Shown: positions 3,390-57,914 of the stretch, piece by piece
How the letters are laid out: each line of letters starts with the position of its first letter
Position numbering within the stretch: the stretch's first letter is position 1
From: Parcubacteria group bacterium LiPW_41
GTDB taxonomy: Bacteria > Patescibacteriota > Minisyncoccia > UBA6257 > GWB1-50-10
Direction: 5' to 3'
Assembly (NCBI GenBank): GCA_007375535.1
Contig: VMEM01000001.1
Span: 39,462 to 103,461 of the forward strand
Length of the DNA: 64,000 nt
The notes under the pieces: model-generated
What the model saw: the letters and a program-made list of their open reading frames with translations, nothing else
Told to the model about the DNA's origin: nothing
Databases searched by the model: none
Program-made: the position numbers and the translations under genes

Positions 3390-4622
3390 TTATACAATTT
3401 CAAAAAAACGGTGTTTACCAATACGGAGAATATCCCCTTTTTTTGTCGCTATCATTTCCTTCTCATCCTTCTTTTGCTCATCATTTATTTTTATTGCTCC
3501 TTGAATAATGAGACGTCGTGCCTCACCCCTACTCTCAACTCCCGCCTCAATAAGTAAATCAATAAGTGGAAGTGTCTTTGTGATTTTTAATTTTGGCGCA
3601 TCTTCTGGGCGCTCTTTCTTTGAAAACACTCGAACAAACTCTTCACGCGCCTCAGTTGCTGCTTTTGTTGAGTGATACAATTTCACCAATTCTTCTGCAA
3701 CATACAATTTTATATCCCGAGGATTTATTCCTTTCTTTAGTGCAATTTTTATTTCCTCAACATTTTTTTGTGGAATGAGTGTTGCAAGCTCCGCAATTGG
3801 AACAATAAGTTCGTCAGGTGCTGCCATCATCTTTCCAAACATCGCAGTTGGAACATCATCAAGATTGATAAGCGTCCCTTCGGTTTTACTCATTTTCTTT
3901 CCTGTTGCAGGATCTTCGAGTAAACGATTAGTGATAACAAATTTTTCTTTATTTCGATATATTCGCTGTACGTCACGTCCTACAAGCATATTAAATGTTT
4001 GATCAGTGCCACCAATTTCCAAATCAACATCCATTGCATATGAATCGTATCCTTGCATTAATGGATAAAAAAATTCATGCAAATGAATTGGCTTCCCTGC
4101 TTGCAAACGCTCCTGAAACATACTCCGTTCAATCATTTGTTGAACGGTGAAATGAGAAGAAAATTCTATAACCTCTTCAAATGTTAATTTTGATAACCAC
4201 TTTGCATTGAATTTTACCTGTGCTGCATTTTGACCAGAAAACCGCAACACTTTTGATGCTTGAGTTTTAAATGTTTTTAAATTTTCTTTTACTTGCGCAC
4301 TAGTGAGTGAAACGCGTGCAGCGAGCTTGTCAGTTGGATCTCCGATTCTTCCAGTAAAATCACCAAAAAGTACAAACACCTCATGTCCTAAATCCTGAAA
4401 CCTGCGGAGCATAATTAAATTCTCTGCATGTCCTAAATGTAAATGTGGACTCGTTGGGTCAATTCCTAAATACAAACGAATCTTTTTTCCTGAAAATAAC
4501 ACTTTCTCGAGTGCTCCCCTTGTTGGATATATTGAGTCAACTGAACGGGTAAGCAATTCTTCAATTGCTGACTTATCCGTTGATACTTTTACAACGCCTT
4601 TCATATCTACCCATACTATCAC
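3390..4622 (-). CDS. tyrS: Tyrosyl-tRNA synthetase
   Basis: HIGH-type motif HLGH, KMSKT motif (KKMSKTEGT), and a C-terminal S4-like domain. Confidence 0.9.
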   Translation of the reverse strand: MIVWVDMKGVVKVSTDKSAIEELLTRSVDSIYPTRGALEKVLFSGKKIRLYLGIDPTSPHLHLGHAENLIMLRRFQDLGHEVFVLFGDFTGRIGDPTDKLAARVSLTSAQVKENLKTFKTQASKVLRFSGQNAAQVKFNAKWLSKLTFEEVIEFSSHFTVQQMIERSMFQERLQAGKPIHLHEFFYPLMQGYDSYAMDVDLEIGGTDQTFNMLVGRDVQRIYRNKEKFVITNRLLEDPATGKKMSKTEGTLINLDDVPTAMFGKMMAAPDELIVPIAELATLIPQKNVEEIKIALKKGINPRDIKLYVAEELVKLYHSTKAATEAREEFVRVFSKKERPEDAPKLKITKTLPLIDLLIEAGVESRGEARRLIIQGAIKINDEQKKDEKEMIATKKGDILRIGKHRFFEIV

Positions 4623-4635
4623 GCTTTTTTGATTA

Positions 4636-4668
4636 AAAAAATCCCGCTTACTGCGAGATTTTTTAATC
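4636..4668 (-). terminator. Hairpin plus U-run downstream of clpP
   Basis: AATCCCGC ttact GCGAGATT followed by a T-run. Confidence 0.4.
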
Positions 4669-4695
4669 CTAAACTCTAGTTACTAAATCCTATTT

Positions 4696-5280
4696 CTATT
4701 TTTTTGTTTTTATAATCTCATCCACAATCCCATACCGCTTTGCCTCGTCAGCGCTCAACCAGAAATCACGGTCAGCATCTTCCTCAATTTTTTCATATTT
4801 CTGTCCCGTGTGTTTTGCGAGAATCTGATTGATTCGCTCCTTGATACGCAAGATATGCTTTGCAGAAATTTCAATGTCTGATGCCTGCCCCTCTACTCCA
4901 CTCATTGGCTGATGAATCATTATTTCAGAATTTGGTAATGCAAATCGTTTTCCTTTTGCTCCCGCCGCAAGAAGCACAGACCCCATTGATGCCGCAATCC
5001 CCACACAAATAGTTGAAACAGGTGATTTCACGTGTTGCATCGTGTCATAAATCGCAAGCCCCGCATGCACTGATCCCCCAGGAGTATTGAGATAAAACTG
5101 AATTTCTTTTTTTGGATCTTCATGATCAAGAAAAAGGAACTGTGCAATAACACTGTTTGCTACCGTGTCATCAATCGGCCCACCTAAGAAGACAATGCGC
5201 TCTTTTAAAAGACGAGAGTAAATATCATAGGCGCGCTCGCCATAATTTGATTTTTCAATAACTGTCGGAATTAAGTTCAT
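4696..5280 (-). CDS. clpP: ATP-dependent Clp protease proteolytic subunit
   Basis: Full-length similarity to ClpP, including [18 protein letters not shown] and IMIHQP. Confidence 0.9.
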
Positions 5281-5296
5281 ATGAGCACTATATAAA

Positions 5297-5332
5297 AAAA
5301 CAGCCCAATATTCAAATTGGGCTGTTTTTTAC
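5297..5332 (-). terminator. Intrinsic terminator (CAGCCCAAT/ATTGGGCTG)
   Basis: Perfect 9-bp stem plus a T-run after the 5329-5940 gene. Confidence 0.6.
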
Positions 5333-5940: not shown

Positions 5941-5997
5941 ACTATGTTTATTCTAACAAAATACACAATAACAAACTAATTTAATCTATTATTGTGT

Positions 5998-6267
5998 GCG
6001 CTCGGATACCCTTCGAGTCCTAAAATACAAATACAAAAAATCGCTCTTCGAGCGATATTTTGTATTTGTGCCCTCGTGAGGACTTTCCTCACCCGTCGCT
6101 TTCGCTCCTCCTTTGGAATCCTGGGTTCCTCGCTTCCGCTCATCCTCGACAAGCTCGGATTCGCTTTTCGCATTCGCGCGCTCGGATACCCTTCGAGTCC
6201 TAAAAATACAAATACAAAAAATCGCTCTTCGAGCGATATTTTGTATTTGTGCCCTCGTGAGGACTCG
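5998..6267 (-). repeat. tRNA-Arg trailer element, containing two 87-bp near-identical direct repeats
   Basis: The direct repeats are at 5998-6084 and 6178-6267. Each carries the last 17 nt of tRNA-Arg, a hairpin ACAAATACAAAA…TTTTGTATTTGT and an antisense T-arm (AGGACTCGAAGG). The 93-bp GC-rich spacer contains GAGCGAAAGCGACGG. Confidence 0.8.
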
Positions 6268-6321
6268 AACCTCAATTACGAGATCCGCAATCTCGCGTCC
6301 TATCCATTGAACGACGAGGGC
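6250..6321 (-). tRNA. tRNA-Arg, anticodon GCG as read
   Basis: Hand-folded cloverleaf with acceptor GCCCTCG/CGAGGGC, T-loop GGTTCGAGTCC and anticodon loop TTGCGGA. No encoded CCA. Confidence 0.75.
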
Positions 6322-6342
6322 GTAACATACACTTGTATGTTG

Positions 6343-6413
6343 TGCGGGCAAGGAGAATCGAACTCCTGTCTCAACCTTGGCAAGGTCGTGTTCTACCACT
6401 AAACCATGCCCGC
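6343..6413 (-). tRNA. tRNA-Gly(GCC)
   Basis: Cloverleaf with acceptor GCGGGCA/TGCCCGC, anticodon loop TTGCCAA and T-loop TTCGATT. Confidence 0.8.
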
Positions 6414-9059: not shown

Positions 9060-9286
9060 AAAGTTGCTTCGCTTTGAAATAATTAAAAAATGTACATTTT
9101 TTAATATGTAGTCCCAAGGGGAATCCTTTCAACTAATCACTCGCCGTCGCTCGTGATTGTTTCAAGCCTGGGCTCACGGTGTATTCTACTGAATACACAT
9201 CGCTCCGCCCTTCGTTTCCCCACACGAAACAAGAAATTGTTTCGTTTTGGGATAATTAAAAAAATCTAAAAATTTTTTTAATCAGT
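9060..9286 (-). repeat. tRNA-Glu trailer element
   Basis: The distal end carries TAGTCCCAAGGGGAATC (9109-9125), a copy of the tRNA-Glu 3' end, with similar A/T hairpin flanks. The core contains GGGGAAACG, the hairpins GTGTATTC/GAATACAC and CGAAACAA/TTGTTTCG, and GAGCGACGGCGAG. Confidence 0.75.
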
Positions 9287-11190: not shown

Positions 11191-11372
11191 TGATGTGTGG
11201 ATTCGAACCGCAGGCTCCCTATTTTCTTAGTGAGCGAAGCGAGCTTAGAAAATAGCAGTGTCGCACATTGTGCGACCCGCAGTCATTATTTGAGAACGTA
11301 GGTCTCGAGTTCAGCAGAACGAGAGGAGAATCACTAACTTGTAAGCTCATTCATGCGATATATAATTGCTAG
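11186..11372 (+). repeat. Degenerate trailer-element copy after tRNA-Ser(UGA)
   Basis: Begins with the antisense T-arm GTGGATTCGAACC. Contains GTGAGCGAAGCGAGC, the hairpin GTCGCAC att GTGCGAC, and GGTCTCGAG. Confidence 0.45.
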
Positions 11373-15530: not shown

Positions 15531-15569
15531 TATTCAATTGTACCACAGAAGTCATCCATGTCCAAAAAT

Positions 15570-15755
15570 TTTGTGGGCGATAAGGAATCGAACGTCGTCT
15601 CATCAGAATGAGACTCCCACGAACCCAGCGGTTCGTGCGCTCCGCCACTGGGAAACTCCCGTTTCCCCGACCCCTTTCCCAGTTCGAGTCCTGTATATCA
15701 CAAGATATAAAAACAACGCATTTGCTTTAGAAATAGTGCATTGTTTTTATCTATG
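15570..15755 (-). repeat. tRNA-Val(GAC) trailer element
   Basis: In tRNA orientation: a terminator hairpin, the antisense T-arm ATACAGGACTCGAAC, GGGAAAGGGGTCGGGGAAACGGGAGTTTCCC, the hairpins CACGAACC/GGTTCGTG and GTCTCAT/ATGAGAC, and a sense end GTTCGATTCCTTATCGCCCAC. Confidence 0.75.
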
Positions 15756-16387: not shown

Positions 16388-16590
16388 CTAATATCAAAAC
16401 AATACACTTCATGTGTATTGTTTTATATTCGGAGAGATTTAAACGGGAAAGGGGTCGGGAAAACGGAAGTTTTCCCGTGGTGGAAGTACTGAAACCGCAA
16501 GGTGTCAGAAAATTTCGTCTGCGAAATTTTGTTCAATTCCCTCCCCCTCCACAAACAAAAAACACCATACAAAGTGGTGTTTTTAATTTT
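16388..16590 (+). repeat. tRNA-Ser(CGA) trailer element
   Basis: A terminator hairpin, the antisense T-arm GGAGAGATTTAAAC, GGGAAAGGGGTCGGGAAAACGGAAGTTTTCCCG, TGGTGGAAG, the hairpin CTGAAACC-GCAA-GGTGTCAG, a pseudo-anticodon arm ATTTCG-TCTG-CGAAAT, the sense end GTTCAATTCCCTCCCCCTCCAC, and a second terminator. Confidence 0.8.
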
Positions 16591-55670: not shown

Positions 55671-55743
55671 GGGCCAGTAGCTTAGTGGCTAAAGCACCGA
55701 GCTTATACCTCGGCGACCGAAGGTTCGAGTCCTTCCTGGCCCA
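55671..55743 (+). tRNA. tRNA-Ile, anticodon UAU as read
   Basis: Acceptor GGGCCAG/CTGGCCC and anticodon stem-loop CCGAG-CTTATAC-CTCGG. Confidence 0.7.
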
Positions 55744-55769
55744 CAGAACGGGCATTACAAACAAAATAT

Positions 55770-55841
55770 GGGCGTTTAGCTTAGTGGTAGAGCGTCTCGT
55801 TTACACCGAGAAGGTCGGGGGTTCAATCCCCTCAACGCCCA
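55770..55841 (+). tRNA. tRNA-Val(UAC)
   Basis: Acceptor GGGCGTT/AACGCCC and anticodon loop TTTACAC. Confidence 0.8.
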
Positions 55842-56058
55842 CACAATAAAACATCATATTTCTCAATATGATGTTTTTGTATGAGGGGATTGAACAAGAA
55901 GGGGTGTTGGGGAAACGTTTGTTTCCCCATGGAGGAAGTATTGAAACCGAGTGGTTTCAAAGCGCAGTCTCGCCCGCAAGACGAGCAGTGAAATTTCCCC
56001 TCAACGCCCACACAAAAACAAAAACATCCTTTTCTAGGATGTTTTTGTTTTCTATTTT
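55842..56058 (+). repeat. tRNA-Val(UAC) trailer element
   Basis: Terminator AAAACATCATAT/ATATGATGTTTT, the perfect antisense T-arm GAGGGGATTGAAC, GGGGAAACGTTTGTTTCCCC, TGGAGGAAG, the hairpin TTGAAACC-GAGT-GGTTTCAA, GTCTCG…CGAG, a 20-nt copy of the tRNA 3' end TCCCCTCAACGCCCACACAA (56004-56023), and a second similar terminator. Confidence 0.8.
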
Positions 56059-57914
56059 GCAGTTACTGAATCAGCAGATACCCCCAAATCTTTAAGTAGT
56101 TTATAAAACTCTTCTTGTTCGAGTGTTTCTTTTTCAATAAGTGCCGCTGCAACCCCATCAAGTGCCTTGCGGTATGTGGTCATTATTTTCTTTGCAGTTT
56201 GAAGTCCTTTCTGAATATATTCATTGATCTCTCCATCAATCGTCGTCCCAACCGTTTCAGAATAATCTTTATCATTTCCAAATCCACGTCCCAAGAACGT
56301 CATCTCTTGTCCCTTTCCGTATGCACGTGGACCAAGCTTCTCACTCATTCCATACTTCGTTACCAATAACTCAGCCATATCAGTTGCTTGTTGAATATCA
56401 CTCGATGAACCAGTAGTAATATCTTTAAATACTGCTTGTTCTGCCGCATATCCTCCCAACGAAACTGCAATATCTCCAACAAAATCTGATTTTGTTCTTA
56501 ATCGTTTTTCTTCCATTGGAAGTTTTAATGTGTATCCTCCCGCCATTCCGCGACTTACCACTGAAACCTTGTGCACTGGATCCGAATTTTTAATAATTGC
56601 AGCGACAATTGCATGACCAGCTTCGTGATATGCAGTTACCTGTTTTTCATGATCATTAATAATTCGATTCTTTCGAGCTGGACCAAGTAACACTTTTTCT
56701 ATTGAGTCTAATAAATCTTCTTGTTCAATAAACTTACGATTGTTTCGTGCCGCAAGAATTGCTGCCTCATTCATCAAGTTTGCTAACTCAGCCCCTGCAA
56801 ATCCTGGAGTTCTGAGCGCCACCATATGGAGATCTGCCTTTTTTGAAAGTGGTTTCCCTTTTGCATGAATATTTAAAATTTCTTCTCTATCTTTTATATC
56901 AGGCATATCAAGCATCACACGTCTATCAAAACGTCCTGGACGGAGAAGTGCTTGATCAAGTACATCTGGTCTATTTGTTGCCGCAACAACAATCACGCTT
57001 GTATCTCTTTCAAATCCATCCATCTCTACAAGAATCTGGTTGAGTGTTTGTTCACGTTCGTCGTGTCCACCACCCATCCCTGTTCCACGCTCGCGACCCA
57101 CCGCATCAATTTCATCAATAAAAATAATTGCTGGCGCAGATTTTTTTGCAACTTGAAACAAGTCACGAACACGAGACGCTCCAACACCAACAAACATTTC
57201 AACAAACTCGGATGCGGAAATGTGAAAAAATGGAACATCAGATTCTCCCGCAACTGCACGAGCAAGCATTGTCTTTCCTGTTCCGGGAGAACCCATAAGC
57301 AACACACCGCGAGGAATTTTTGCTCCCATTGCATGAAACTTTTTTGGATTCTTCAAAAACTCAACAACTTCCCATAGTTCTTCTTTTGCTTCCTTAAGAC
57401 CGGCAACATCTTTAAAGAGAATCCTATCTTTTAGAGGGGAGAATAAACGAATATTTACTCTACCAAATGAAAACGCTTGGTTTGCTCCTCCTTTTGCTTG
57501 ACGAAGCATCCACCACAAGATGAGCCCCATAATAACAAGAGGAATAAGTGTTGGAAGAAGGACCCCCATCCAATATTTTGACCCTCCCTGATCTTCAATT
57601 TTTATTTCAATTTTTCCTAATGTGCTTGAAGTTATTCCATAACTTGAAAGCGTTTCCAATAATCCAACTCCTTGTTCTTTTTTTGATTCAGTTTTTGTTC
57701 CATCGTTTAGCTCTAAAGAGAGATTGCTTTCTTGTACAACGATTGCTTTTACTTCATTGTTCGATATTTTTTTTGCAACATCGCTGATGCTTATTTCTTT
57801 TGGTCCGTTTGATTGTGTGTCGATAATCGCACCAAATAGAAGTGCTGTAATTATGAGAAAAATGACCGCATAAATAATATTTTTTCCAAGTGATTTCATA
57901 ATGATAATACGCAA
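56052..57914 (-). CDS. ftsH: ATP-dependent zinc metalloprotease FtsH
   Basis: AAA Walker A GSPGTGKT, the SRH, and M41 motif HEAGHAIV. Confidence 0.95.

What the first reader, a model, noticed from the sequence alone, without database searches (positions are those of the whole stretch)
55842..56058. Val-UAC copy has a perfect antisense T-arm at one end and a 20-nt copy of the tRNA 3' end at the other
The left end carries GAGGGGATTGAAC, the exact reverse complement of the tRNA-Val(UAC) T-arm GTTCAATCCCCTC. The right end carries TCCCCTCAACGCCCACACAA, identical to the last 20 nt of the tRNA. The internal GTCTCG…CGAG resembles the tRNA's own anticodon stem (TCTCG/CGAGA). Two similar terminators (AAAACATCATAT…ATGATGTTTT and AAAACATCC…GGATGTTTT) bracket the element. 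That is the layout expected from insertion with duplication of the target (tRNA 3' end plus terminator), or alternatively from a designed pairing partner for the tRNA.
Basis: seen in the sequence. Interest (0 to 1): 0.8.

Follow-up and report, generated by a model that had tools for sequence, protein, structure and literature searches.

The report
tRNA-linked structured RNA repeat family
The sequence after tRNA-Val is one copy of a conserved, folded small-RNA element that follows most tRNA operons in this candidate-phyla-radiation bacterium, each copy carrying sense and antisense pieces of its own tRNA's 3' part, much like the unexplained "tRNA-linked repeats" of E. coli.

Summary
A 20-nt exact direct repeat and a 14-nt perfect inverted repeat of the tRNA-Val(UAC) 3' part flank a 135-nt element (55882-56016) lying between two terminator-like hairpins.

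It is not a one-off. Seven of the nine tRNA transcription units in this window end in the same layout: tRNA, hairpin, antisense T-arm, structured interior, then a copy of that tRNA's own 3' end. Related Paceibacterota contigs show it too, for Val, Glu, His, Ala, Leu and Ser.

The interiors fall into at least three sequence classes with strong compensatory base-pair support. They are 91-94% identical between genomes whose alr gene is only 70% identical. The arms track changes in the tRNA.

Partial tandem units occur (period 175-181 nt). So do presence/absence differences and class replacement at the same locus.

This architecture matches the E. coli tRNA-linked repeats (TLRs; RtT RNA). Those carry 18-19 nt of the upstream tRNA's 3' end, sit between dual terminators, form 178-bp tandem units, and have no known function. 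I found no sequence homology to them.

Best reading: a small RNA made by terminator read-through, whose terminal helix mimics the tRNA acceptor/T-stem 3' strand. Its arms are kept matched to the tRNA by local recombination, by selection, or both. Function remains unproven.

The parts
55671..55744 (+). tRNA-Ile(UAU), first gene of the transcription unit
   Evidence: ARAGORN; Rfam tRNA, 73.9 bits
55770..55842 (+). tRNA-Val(UAC), last gene of the unit; CCA not encoded
   Evidence: ARAGORN; Rfam tRNA, 72.4 bits
55827..55846 (+). Direct repeat copy 1: tRNA positions 59-73 plus 5 nt of trailer
   Evidence: D1
55848..55877 (+). Hairpin T1 (AAAACATCATAT / ATATGATGTTTT) followed by a U-rich stretch. 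A weak, A/U-rich terminator-like hairpin. It is the tip of a long imperfect palindrome formed by the tRNA 3' part and the antisense arm.
   Evidence: Sequence, I1 and I3; fold of the read-through transcript. Not called by the strict terminator scan.
55882..55895 (+). 5' arm: exact antisense of the tRNA-Val T-loop plus T-stem 3' strand (positions 53-66). Its first 8 nt pair with 55996-56003 to form closing helix P1.
   Evidence: I3
55882..56016 (+). The whole element: a class B tRNA-linked structured RNA
   Evidence: Covariance model R1 gives 98.9 bits, E 2e-26. Alignment A1 and its consensus structure.
55908..55929 (+). Hairpin H1 (GGGGAAAC GTTT GTTTCCCC), preceded by the conserved purine-rich linker AAGAAGGGGTGTT
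   Evidence: I10; (compensatory G-C / A-U change)
55941..55960 (+). Hairpin H2 (TTGAAACC GAGT GGTTTCAA), preceded by the conserved linker ATGGAGGAAGTA
   Evidence: 4 of 8 pairs have compensatory changes
55967..55986 (+). Weak hairpin H3 (GTCT...AGAC or CTCG...CGAG); a stronger hairpin of unrelated sequence sits here in the paralogues
55996..56015 (+). 3' arm, which is direct repeat copy 2. TCCCCTCA pairs with the 5' arm. ACGCCCA(CACAA) is predicted to be a free 3' tail equal to the tRNA acceptor 3' strand.
   Evidence: D1
56015..56051 (+). Terminator T2, two-way by sequence symmetry, shared with the convergent ftsH gene
   Evidence: orthologous hairpin in L012
56052..57914 (-). ftsH, the convergent neighbour; not part of the element
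   Evidence: Pfam
5998..6201 (-). Paralogue after tRNA-Gly/tRNA-Arg(GCG): class C element in about 1.5 tandem units (period 180-181 nt). 17-nt tRNA 3' end copy at 6068-6084.
9107..9221 (-). Paralogue after tRNA-Ser/tRNA-Glu(UUC): class A element ending in an 18-nt copy of the tRNA-Glu 3' end
   Evidence: R2 gives 122 bits
10170..10295 (+). Paralogue after tRNA-Leu(UAA): class C-like interior, 10-nt antisense T-arm, decayed 3' arm (approximate end)
11196..11340 (+). Possible degenerate paralogue after tRNA-Ser(UGA): 11-nt antisense T-arm, no clear 3' copy (approximate end)
15568..15695 (-). Paralogue after tRNA-Val(GAC): class B element with a 15-nt perfect antisense T-arm
   Evidence: R1 gives 129 bits
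16431..16555 (+). Paralogue after tRNA-Arg/tRNA-Ser(CGA): class B element
   Evidence: R1 gives 130.5 bits

Best explanation
The element at 55882-56016 is one copy of a multi-copy family of tRNA-linked structured RNA genes ("TLR-like") in a Paceibacterota (candidate phyla radiation) genome.

Layout. Each copy sits directly after the last tRNA of a transcription unit, on the tRNA strand, behind a hairpin. It has a 5' arm antisense to that tRNA's T-loop and T-stem 3' strand. It has a conserved interior of hairpins joined by purine-rich linkers. It has a 3' arm that copies that tRNA's 3' end.

Inferred mechanism.
- The two arms close the RNA into a helix that reproduces the 3' strand of the tRNA's acceptor/T-stem stack, with a free acceptor-like 3' tail.
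- The tRNA end-maturation enzymes (RNase P, RNase Z, CCA-adding enzyme) can therefore trim and stabilise it.
- The conserved interior carries the still unknown function.
- At the DNA level, the direct repeat allows unequal crossing-over. This yields tandem units, precise loss and homogenisation.
- The inverted repeat around the hairpin keeps the 5' arm matched to the tRNA, by template switching and/or by selection for pairing with the tRNA.

Shown versus inferred. Shown: the anatomy, the family, the structure, the conservation and the arm-tRNA co-variation. Inferred: transcription, processing and function.
For: Family.
- The same layout was found for more than 20 tRNAs: direct repeats of 10-25 nt at 120-226 nt downstream and inverted repeats of 10-15 nt at 25-72 nt downstream.
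- Upstream controls gave 2-9 nt, with two of 11 nt.

Structure.
- Class B (alignment A1): 94% of cells are paired, against 57% or less when the partners are slid. 12 of 34 pairs have compensatory changes. 0 of 500 shuffles reach the observed score.
- Class A (alignment A2): 26 of 36 pairs have compensatory changes.
- Models R1 and R2 recover members that were not used to build them.

Strand.
- G-U versus A-C cells are 11:3 in class B.
- GNRA-type loops (GCAA, GGAA, GAAA) appear only on the tRNA strand.

Selection.
- Elements are 91-94% identical between the window and L090.
- Over the same genome pair, alr DNA is 70% identical, the downstream flanks 54-62% and the tRNAs 96-99%.

Arms follow the tRNA.
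- L013 has a different T-arm, an exact 20-nt repeat of it and a matching antisense arm.
- The Val(GAC) 5' arm follows a compensatory T-stem change between the window and L090.
- In 14 of 14 elements the 5' arm fits the tRNA better than it fits the element's own 3' arm.

Recombination dynamics.
- Partial tandem units occur.
- The element is absent in L011, L002 and L089.
- The Val(UAC)-ftsH slot holds class B in the window and class A in L006, L007, L008, L012, L013 and L015.

Read-through.
- There is no promoter-like site between T1 and the element, and T2 is terminator-like.

Precedent.
- E. coli TLRs have an 18-19 bp tRNA 3' end copy, dual terminators, read-through transcription and processing near the repeat (PMC8144298).
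- The E. coli tyrV units show the same closing helix plus a free 3' tail.
Against: - There are no expression data, so transcription, read-through and processing are all inferred.
- In class A the G-U versus A-C count is only 8:6. The strand call therefore rests mainly on class B and on the loop motifs.
- Processing enzymes read shape, not sequence. Mimicry alone does not explain exact identity to the neighbouring tRNA.
- It also does not explain why the 5' arm extends into the antisense of the T-loop, beyond what the closing helix needs.
- No homology to E. coli TLRs or Rfam RtT was detected. The parallel may be convergent.
- Class replacement at one locus is hard to explain without some copying mechanism, and none was identified.
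Confidence: 0.6

Rival explanations
1. Dedicated pairing partner of the neighbouring tRNA. The 5' arm pairs with the T-arm, and the 3' tail pairs with the 5' acceptor strand, of the tRNA or pre-tRNA. This could happen in cis on read-through transcripts or in trans. It would trap, sense or redirect that specific tRNA, or build an "expanded tRNA" in which the element replaces the T-loop.
For: - In 14 of 14 elements the 5' arm is more complementary to the tRNA (10-17 nt) than to the element's own 3' arm.
- The 5' arm follows T-loop and T-stem changes in the tRNA.
- The lowest-energy fold of the read-through transcript is exactly the strand-exchanged form: -116.9 kcal/mol, z -8.4.
- The heterodimer is favoured by about 12 kcal/mol in silico.
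Against: - A folded, modified tRNA T-arm is locked in tertiary contacts, and the energy model ignores this.
- The tRNA folds before the arm is transcribed.
- In E. coli and L044 the antisense T-loop carries conserved substitutions (GATGAGAA for GATTCGAA).
- The pairing would inactivate the tRNA.
- There are no interaction data.
Confidence: 0.2
2. Selfish or relic DNA: the scar or miniature derivative of an integrative element that inserted into the tRNA gene's T-loop to 3' end region. It brought its own copy of the tRNA 3' end, and the displaced original forms the second repeat.
For: - Direct repeats that start in the T-loop and run to the tRNA 3' end are the classical signature of integrase targets in tRNA genes (general knowledge).
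- Elements are present or absent between relatives.
- Tandem units occur.
- T1 resembles T2.
Against: - No integrase or other gene lies between or beside the repeats.
- The arms differ for each tRNA while the interior is shared.
- The interior shows compensatory RNA-type covariation and tRNA-like conservation.
- No T-arm-like hairpin sits at the right-hand junction.
- The E. coli counterparts also follow 5S rRNA (PMC8144298).
Confidence: 0.12
3. A degenerate tRNA-Val duplicate (pseudo-tRNA), or a tRNA-like or tmRNA-like gene.
For: - The 3' end equals the tRNA 3' end.
- GGGTGTT (55904-55910) could pair with AACGCCC (56005-56011), as read directly from the sequence.
- Some class A copies also carry the antisense of the acceptor 3' strand, which is equivalent to an acceptor 5' strand.
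Against: - ARAGORN and Rfam find no tRNA or tmRNA here.
- There is no cloverleaf.
- The GGGTGTT partner belongs to a conserved linker (GGGGTC in the paralogues) that does not match their tRNAs.
- The same interior occurs beside unrelated tRNAs.
Confidence: 0.05

Closest known systems
E. coli tRNA-linked repeats (TLRs): the tyrT 178-bp repeats / RtT RNA (rttR, Rfam RF00391) and the rrA/rrB/rrF small RNAs of rrn operons (Egan & Landy 1978; Rudd 1999; Stenum et al. 2021, PMC8144298)
   Same: - They sit immediately downstream of a tRNA (or 5S) gene, in the same operon and on the same strand.
- The 3' end carries 18-19 nt (here 20 nt) identical to the 3' end of the upstream stable RNA.
- There are many copies per genome at different tRNA loci.
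- They form tandem or partial tandem units of about 175-181 nt (E. coli: 178 bp, 3.14 copies).
- Some copies lie between two terminators and are made by read-through.
- In the tyrV unit, a 5' segment antisense to the T-arm region (GGGGAAGGAT) closes the RNA and leaves the acceptor-like tail free.
- Function is unknown.
   Different: - No detectable sequence homology. Rfam RtT gives no hit at E up to 10 or up to 0.1. Smith-Waterman scores are at shuffle level for six of seven elements (z -0.5 to 0.9; win_Glu z 3.2). The CPR models do not hit the E. coli locus.
- The host phylum is different (Patescibacteria), and CCA is not encoded.
- The interiors form at least three distinct, covariation-supported structure classes.
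- The antisense arm keeps the exact T-loop complement and tracks the tRNA.
- No small ORF like tpr is conserved.
attL/attR repeats of integrative elements inserted in tRNA genes (tyrosine-integrase targets in the T-loop to 3' end)
   Same: - A direct repeat of about 17-20 nt starts in the T-loop and runs through the tRNA 3' end.
- The upstream copy completes an intact tRNA.
- Precise loss is possible by recombination between the repeats.
   Different: - Only about 150 nt lie between the repeats.
- There is no integrase.
- The interior is a conserved structured RNA shared between different tRNAs.
- An antisense T-arm is present.
3' external transcribed spacer RNAs of tRNA operons (for example 3'ETS-leuZ in E. 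coli, cited in PMC8144298)
   Same: A functional RNA derived from the 3' trailer of a tRNA operon transcript.
   Different: - 3'ETS-leuZ is a short sponge without a tRNA 3' end copy.
- It is not a repeated family.
- It does not carry arms matched to the tRNA.

Membership tests
tRNA-linked repeats (TLR) as defined in E. coli | Located in a tRNA or rRNA operon, immediately downstream of a stable RNA gene | tested here: met
   The element starts 40 nt after tRNA-Val(UAC), on the same strand. The same holds for 6 other tRNA units in the window.
tRNA-linked repeats (TLR) as defined in E. coli | About 18-19 bp at the 3' end identical to the 3' end of the upstream tRNA/rRNA gene (the hallmark stated in PMC8144298) | tested here: met
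   20 nt are exact here. Paralogues and orthologues show 10-25 nt. The repeat starts at tRNA positions 56-60, as in tyrV (position 58/59).
tRNA-linked repeats (TLR) as defined in E. coli | Repeated at several loci per genome, sometimes as tandem units | tested here: met
   7 loci lie within 64 kb. About 1.5 tandem units follow tRNA-Arg, and there is a 64-nt repeat in L048.
tRNA-linked repeats (TLR) as defined in E. coli | [quoted passage not shown] | not testable with these tools
   Only indirect evidence: no promoter-like site, and T2 is terminator-like.
Rfam RtT RNA (RF00391), sequence/structure family | A match to the RtT covariance model, or detectable sequence similarity to E. coli TLR units | tested here: not met
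   - No RtT hit at E up to 10 or up to 0.1.
- Pairwise scores are at shuffle level for six of seven elements.
- R1 and R2 do not hit the E. coli locus L016.
Integrase-mediated insertion in a tRNA gene (att scar) | A recombinase gene, or remnants of an island, between or next to the repeats | tested here: not met
   149 nt lie between the repeats. The neighbours are a hypothetical protein and ftsH.
Integrase-mediated insertion in a tRNA gene (att scar) | A direct repeat covering the tRNA 3' part from the T-loop onward | tested here: met
   D1
tRNA / tmRNA | Cloverleaf or tRNA-like domain recognised by ARAGORN or the Rfam tRNA/tmRNA models | tested here: not met

The most novel reading that the evidence does not exclude
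TLR-like elements may form a widespread, overlooked class running from E. coli to the candidate phyla radiation. In this reading, each tRNA operon carries a dedicated RNA whose arms base-pair with its own tRNA: the antisense T-arm, plus a tail complementary to the 5' acceptor strand. On read-through transcripts this would build a strand-exchanged, "expanded" tRNA-element chimera. The chimera would serve as a per-tRNA sensor or regulator of maturation or abundance, rather than being a passive processing mimic or relic.
Probability: 0.12. Interest if true: 0.85.

Novelty: new variant of a known kind. Interest (0 to 1): 0.6.

Why it matters
- tRNA-linked repeats have been known in E. coli since 1978 and still have no function.
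- The same architecture occurs in a reduced Patescibacteria genome, a group not known to carry TLRs. There it follows most tRNA operons, is conserved almost as well as the tRNAs, and has clear covariation-supported structures.
- This argues that the layout is selected rather than accidental.
- It also supplies many independent examples (different tRNAs, at least three interior classes) for working out what the tRNA-matched arms do.
- It flags a set of structured RNAs absent from Rfam. These can be mistaken for pseudo-tRNAs, integration scars or ORFs during annotation.

Tried and rejected
1. Known RNA families. Rfam at gathering and permissive thresholds, on the window and on relatives, gave only tRNAs and noise. 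RtT, YrlA and tmRNA were not supported.

2. tRNA-like fold using GGGTGTT/AACGCCC. Rejected, because GGGTGTT belongs to a conserved linker and the paralogues have no such partner.

3. Homology to E. coli TLRs. An apparent visual similarity (GAGCG, CCCGAAGG, TGAG.AA.TCC) did not survive shuffle controls for six of seven elements (z about 0-1; win_Glu z 3.2). It also did not survive covariance-model searches.

4. Minus-strand RNA (an ftsH 3' UTR). Disfavoured by the G-U:A-C count of 11:3 and by the GNRA loops.

5. Coding potential. The ORFs at 55868-56095 (+) and 55832-56011 (-) are not credible, because the paralogues differ by frame-breaking indels and paired substitutions.

6. Collection scans.
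- The metagenome pattern GAAACAATNNNGAGCRACGGC gave 67 loci. Only L041, L048 and L078 were true elements; the rest were chance or coding matches.
- The same pattern gave 3 viral contigs, none of them an element.
- The genome-contig scan with alanine racemase returned only unrelated taxa. I therefore obtained no named species-level distribution.

7. One common model for all classes. R1 and R2 do not cross-detect classes A, B and C. Common ancestry of the interiors is therefore unproven.

Full report
**Observation**

The region reads: tRNA-Ile(UAU) 55671-55744, tRNA-Val(UAC) 55770-55842, an A/U-rich hairpin (55848-55877), a 135-nt element (55882-56016), a second hairpin with a U-tract (56015-56051), then the convergent ftsH gene.

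The repeat finder confirms the 20-nt exact direct repeat TCCCCTCAACGCCCACACAA at 55827-55846 and 55996-56015. It also confirms the 14-nt perfect inverted repeat GTTCAATCCCCTCA / TGAGGGGATTGAAC.

The repeat covers tRNA positions 59-73 plus five trailer bases. CCA is not encoded.

The two hairpins share AAAACATC...GATGTTTTTGT (D4 and D6). Only the second passes the terminator scan. No promoter-like site lies between the first hairpin and the element.

**What it is not**

Rfam finds only the two tRNAs here. No family matches the element at permissive thresholds. ARAGORN finds no tRNA or tmRNA in it.

On its own the element folds into a closing helix (TGAGGGGA/TCCCCTCA) around hairpins, leaving ACGCCCA... 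as a free 3' tail.

**Organism and orthologous loci**

FtsH homologues place the window in Candidatus Paceibacterota / Parcubacteria.

I fetched the tRNA-Val(UAC)-ftsH interval from relatives. The findings were:
- L007, L008 and L015 carry a longer, clearly different element.
- L006, L012 and L013 carry a variant of that element.
- L011 has only a terminator, with a 45-nt spacer.
- L002-L005 have a rearranged locus and no element.

In all elements the left end is antisense to the T-arm and the right end resembles the tRNA 3' end.

L013 has only 72% FtsH identity and a different T-arm (TTCGACACCC). It carries an exact 20-nt repeat of its own tRNA end (GACACCCTCAGCGCCCACAA) and a matching antisense arm GGGTGTCGAAC. 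The arms therefore follow the tRNA.

The tracking is not universal. L008's 3' arm has several mismatches to its tRNA.

**The key result: it is a family**

Searching every tRNA tail against its surroundings showed the same layout elsewhere in the window. The copies follow:
- Gly-Arg(GCG)
- Ser-Glu(UUC)
- Leu(UAA)
- Ser(UGA)
- Val(GAC)
- Arg-Ser(CGA)

There is none after Cys or Ala. That makes 7 of 9 tRNA transcription units, counting Ile-Val(UAC).

A systematic scan of the window and 13 related loci gave:
- downstream direct repeats of 10-25 nt at 120-226 nt;
- downstream inverted repeats of 10-15 nt at 25-72 nt;
- upstream controls of only 2-9 nt, with two of 11 nt.

Further examples include tRNA-His (L041); Glu (L048); Ser(CGA), Val(GAC), Ala, Leu and Glu (L090); and Ala and Ser(UGA) (L091). 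In L089 the elements are absent after Ser(CGA), Val(GAC) and Ala.

**Structure and strand**

The interiors fall into at least three sequence classes.

Class B comprises the finding, Val(GAC) and Ser(CGA), plus three from L090. It aligns into a closing helix and three hairpins joined by conserved purine-rich linkers (GGGAAAGGGGUC, GUGGUGGAAGUA).
- 94% of cells are paired, against 57% or less when partners are slid.
- 12 of 34 pairs show compensatory changes.
- 0 of 500 shuffles reach the observed score.

Class A (nine sequences) has 26 of 36 pairs with compensatory changes. One example is GGGC:GCCC replaced by CGCC:GGCG.

G-U versus A-C cells are 11:3 in class B, and GNRA-type loops are seen only on the tRNA strand. 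Both point to an RNA on the tRNA strand. Class A is less decisive, at 8:6.

The covariance models behave as follows:
- R1 scores the finding at 98.9 bits.
- R2 recovers non-training members: L008, L006, L012 and a second copy in L041.
- The classes do not cross-detect each other.

**Selection and dynamics**

Comparisons between the window and L090:

| Sequence compared | Identity |
|---|---|
| Ser(CGA) and Val(GAC) elements | 94% and 91% |
| alr gene DNA | 70% |
| Sequence just downstream of the elements | 54-62% |
| tRNAs | 96-99% |

This is strong purifying selection on the elements.

The loci are nevertheless dynamic:
- The Arg element is about 1.5 tandem units: 63-nt and 28-nt exact repeats with a period of 180-181 nt.
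- L048 has a 64-nt repeat with a period of 175 nt.
- The Val(UAC)-ftsH slot holds class B in the window and class A in six relatives.
- The first hairpin of L006 and L012 matches the single terminator of L011. The window's first hairpin instead resembles its own second one, which is orthologous to that of L012.

I read this last pattern as unequal crossing-over between repeat units.

**The arms**

In 14 of 14 elements the 5' arm is more complementary to the tRNA T-arm (10-17 nt) than to the element's own 3' arm (6-13 nt).

Between the window and L090, the tRNA-Val(GAC) T-stem has a compensatory change (CAGG/CCTG to CTGG/CCAG). The 5' arm follows it (ATACAGGAC to ATACTGGAC). The 3' arm does not.

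The read-through transcript 55770-56052 is predicted to fold as follows (-116.9 kcal/mol, z -8.4):
- the tRNA 3' third pairs with the 5' arm;
- the tRNA 5' acceptor strand pairs with the element's 3' tail.

The tRNA-element heterodimer is about 12 kcal/mol more stable in silico than the two monomers. These energies ignore tRNA tertiary structure and base modification.

**Comparison with known systems**

The architecture is that of the E. coli tRNA-linked repeats. Their features, from PMC8144298, are:
- 22 copies at 10 loci in tRNA/rRNA operons;
- the hallmark of 18-19 bp identical to the 3' end of the upstream tRNA or 5S gene;
- for rrA/B/F, a position between dual terminators with expression by read-through;
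- no known function.

I fetched the E. coli tyrV locus. It has three 178-nt units, each ending in AATCCTTCCCCCACCACCA. Each contains GGGGAAGGAT, the antisense of ATCCTTCCCC. The unit folds with that closing helix and a free 3' tail.

Sequence homology is not demonstrable. Rfam RtT does not hit, Smith-Waterman scores are at shuffle level for six of seven elements, and R1/R2 do not hit the E. coli locus.

By chance, an unrelated metagenome contig (L044) showed another such element after tRNA-Gln(UUG). It has an 18-nt repeat including CCA and an E. coli-like arm ATAGGATGAGAACC. This suggests the layout is more widespread than annotated.

I found no description of such elements in candidate-phyla-radiation bacteria in the paper library.

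**Interpretation**

[quoted passage not shown] Its terminal helix copies the 3' strand of the tRNA acceptor/T-stem stack, so the tRNA end-processing enzymes define its ends. The conserved interior would do the unknown work.

The direct repeat would drive tandem duplication, precise loss and homogenisation. The inverted repeat around the first hairpin, together with selection, would keep the 5' arm matched to the tRNA.

The anatomy, family membership, structure, conservation and arm co-variation are shown. Transcription, processing and function are inferred.

The main rival is a true pairing role toward the tRNA, which the arm data favour more than simple mimicry does. An integration scar and a pseudo-tRNA are disfavoured.

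**Verdict**

The element is a new variant of a known but unexplained kind, the tRNA-linked repeat, in a phylum where it had not been reported. I rate interest as moderate to high.

Noticed in passing
window 55671-55744; also L002, L008, L011, L013, L015: A tRNA-Ile gene with anticodon UAU is conserved next to tRNA-Val(UAC) in all relatives. To my knowledge most bacteria instead read AUA with a lysidine-modified CAU tRNA.
   Followed up: no
L044 7140-7391 (minus strand): An unrelated metagenome contig carries a TLR-like element after tRNA-Gln(UUG). It has an 18-nt exact copy of the tRNA 3' end, including CCA, 158 nt downstream. Its 5' arm ATAGGATGAGAACC resembles the E. coli tyrV unit (GGATGAGAAGC). 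Rfam RtT does not detect it.
   Followed up: partly
L089 3944-8043: A relative (alr 71% identical) has a block between its ABC-transporter gene and the tRNA-Arg/tRNA-Ser(CGA) pair. The block holds CD-NTase/SMODS-like, LexA-methyltransferase, EcoRV-like endonuclease and HTH genes. The tRNA-linked elements are absent after Ser(CGA), Val(GAC) and Ala there.
   Followed up: no
L091 13740-15314: A large serine recombinase gene (Resolvase, Recombinase, Zn_ribbon_recom) lies right beside tRNA-Leu(UAA) and tRNA-Ser(GCU) in a relative. This may be an integrated element at the tRNA cluster.
   Followed up: no
L002-L005, about 4387-5306: In the closest relatives (FtsH 96% identical), an HTH-domain gene lies between ftsH and the tRNA-Ile/tRNA-Val pair. 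The pair is inverted relative to the window, and there is no element after tRNA-Val.
   Followed up: partly
window 5976-6402: Mechanical ORFs of 99-136 aa on both strands run across the tRNA-Arg element and the tRNAs. Such repeats could be mis-annotated as hypothetical proteins.
   Followed up: no
L041 7960-8070 (minus strand): Model R2 found a second class A element (91 bits) at the contig end of L041. It is cut off at its 5' side, and the associated tRNA is not in the fetched sequence.
   Followed up: no
window 55882-56016 versus 15568-15695 and 16431-16555: The unit periods of the CPR elements (169-181 nt) are close to the 178-bp period of the E. coli tyrT repeats, despite no detectable homology.
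   Followed up: no
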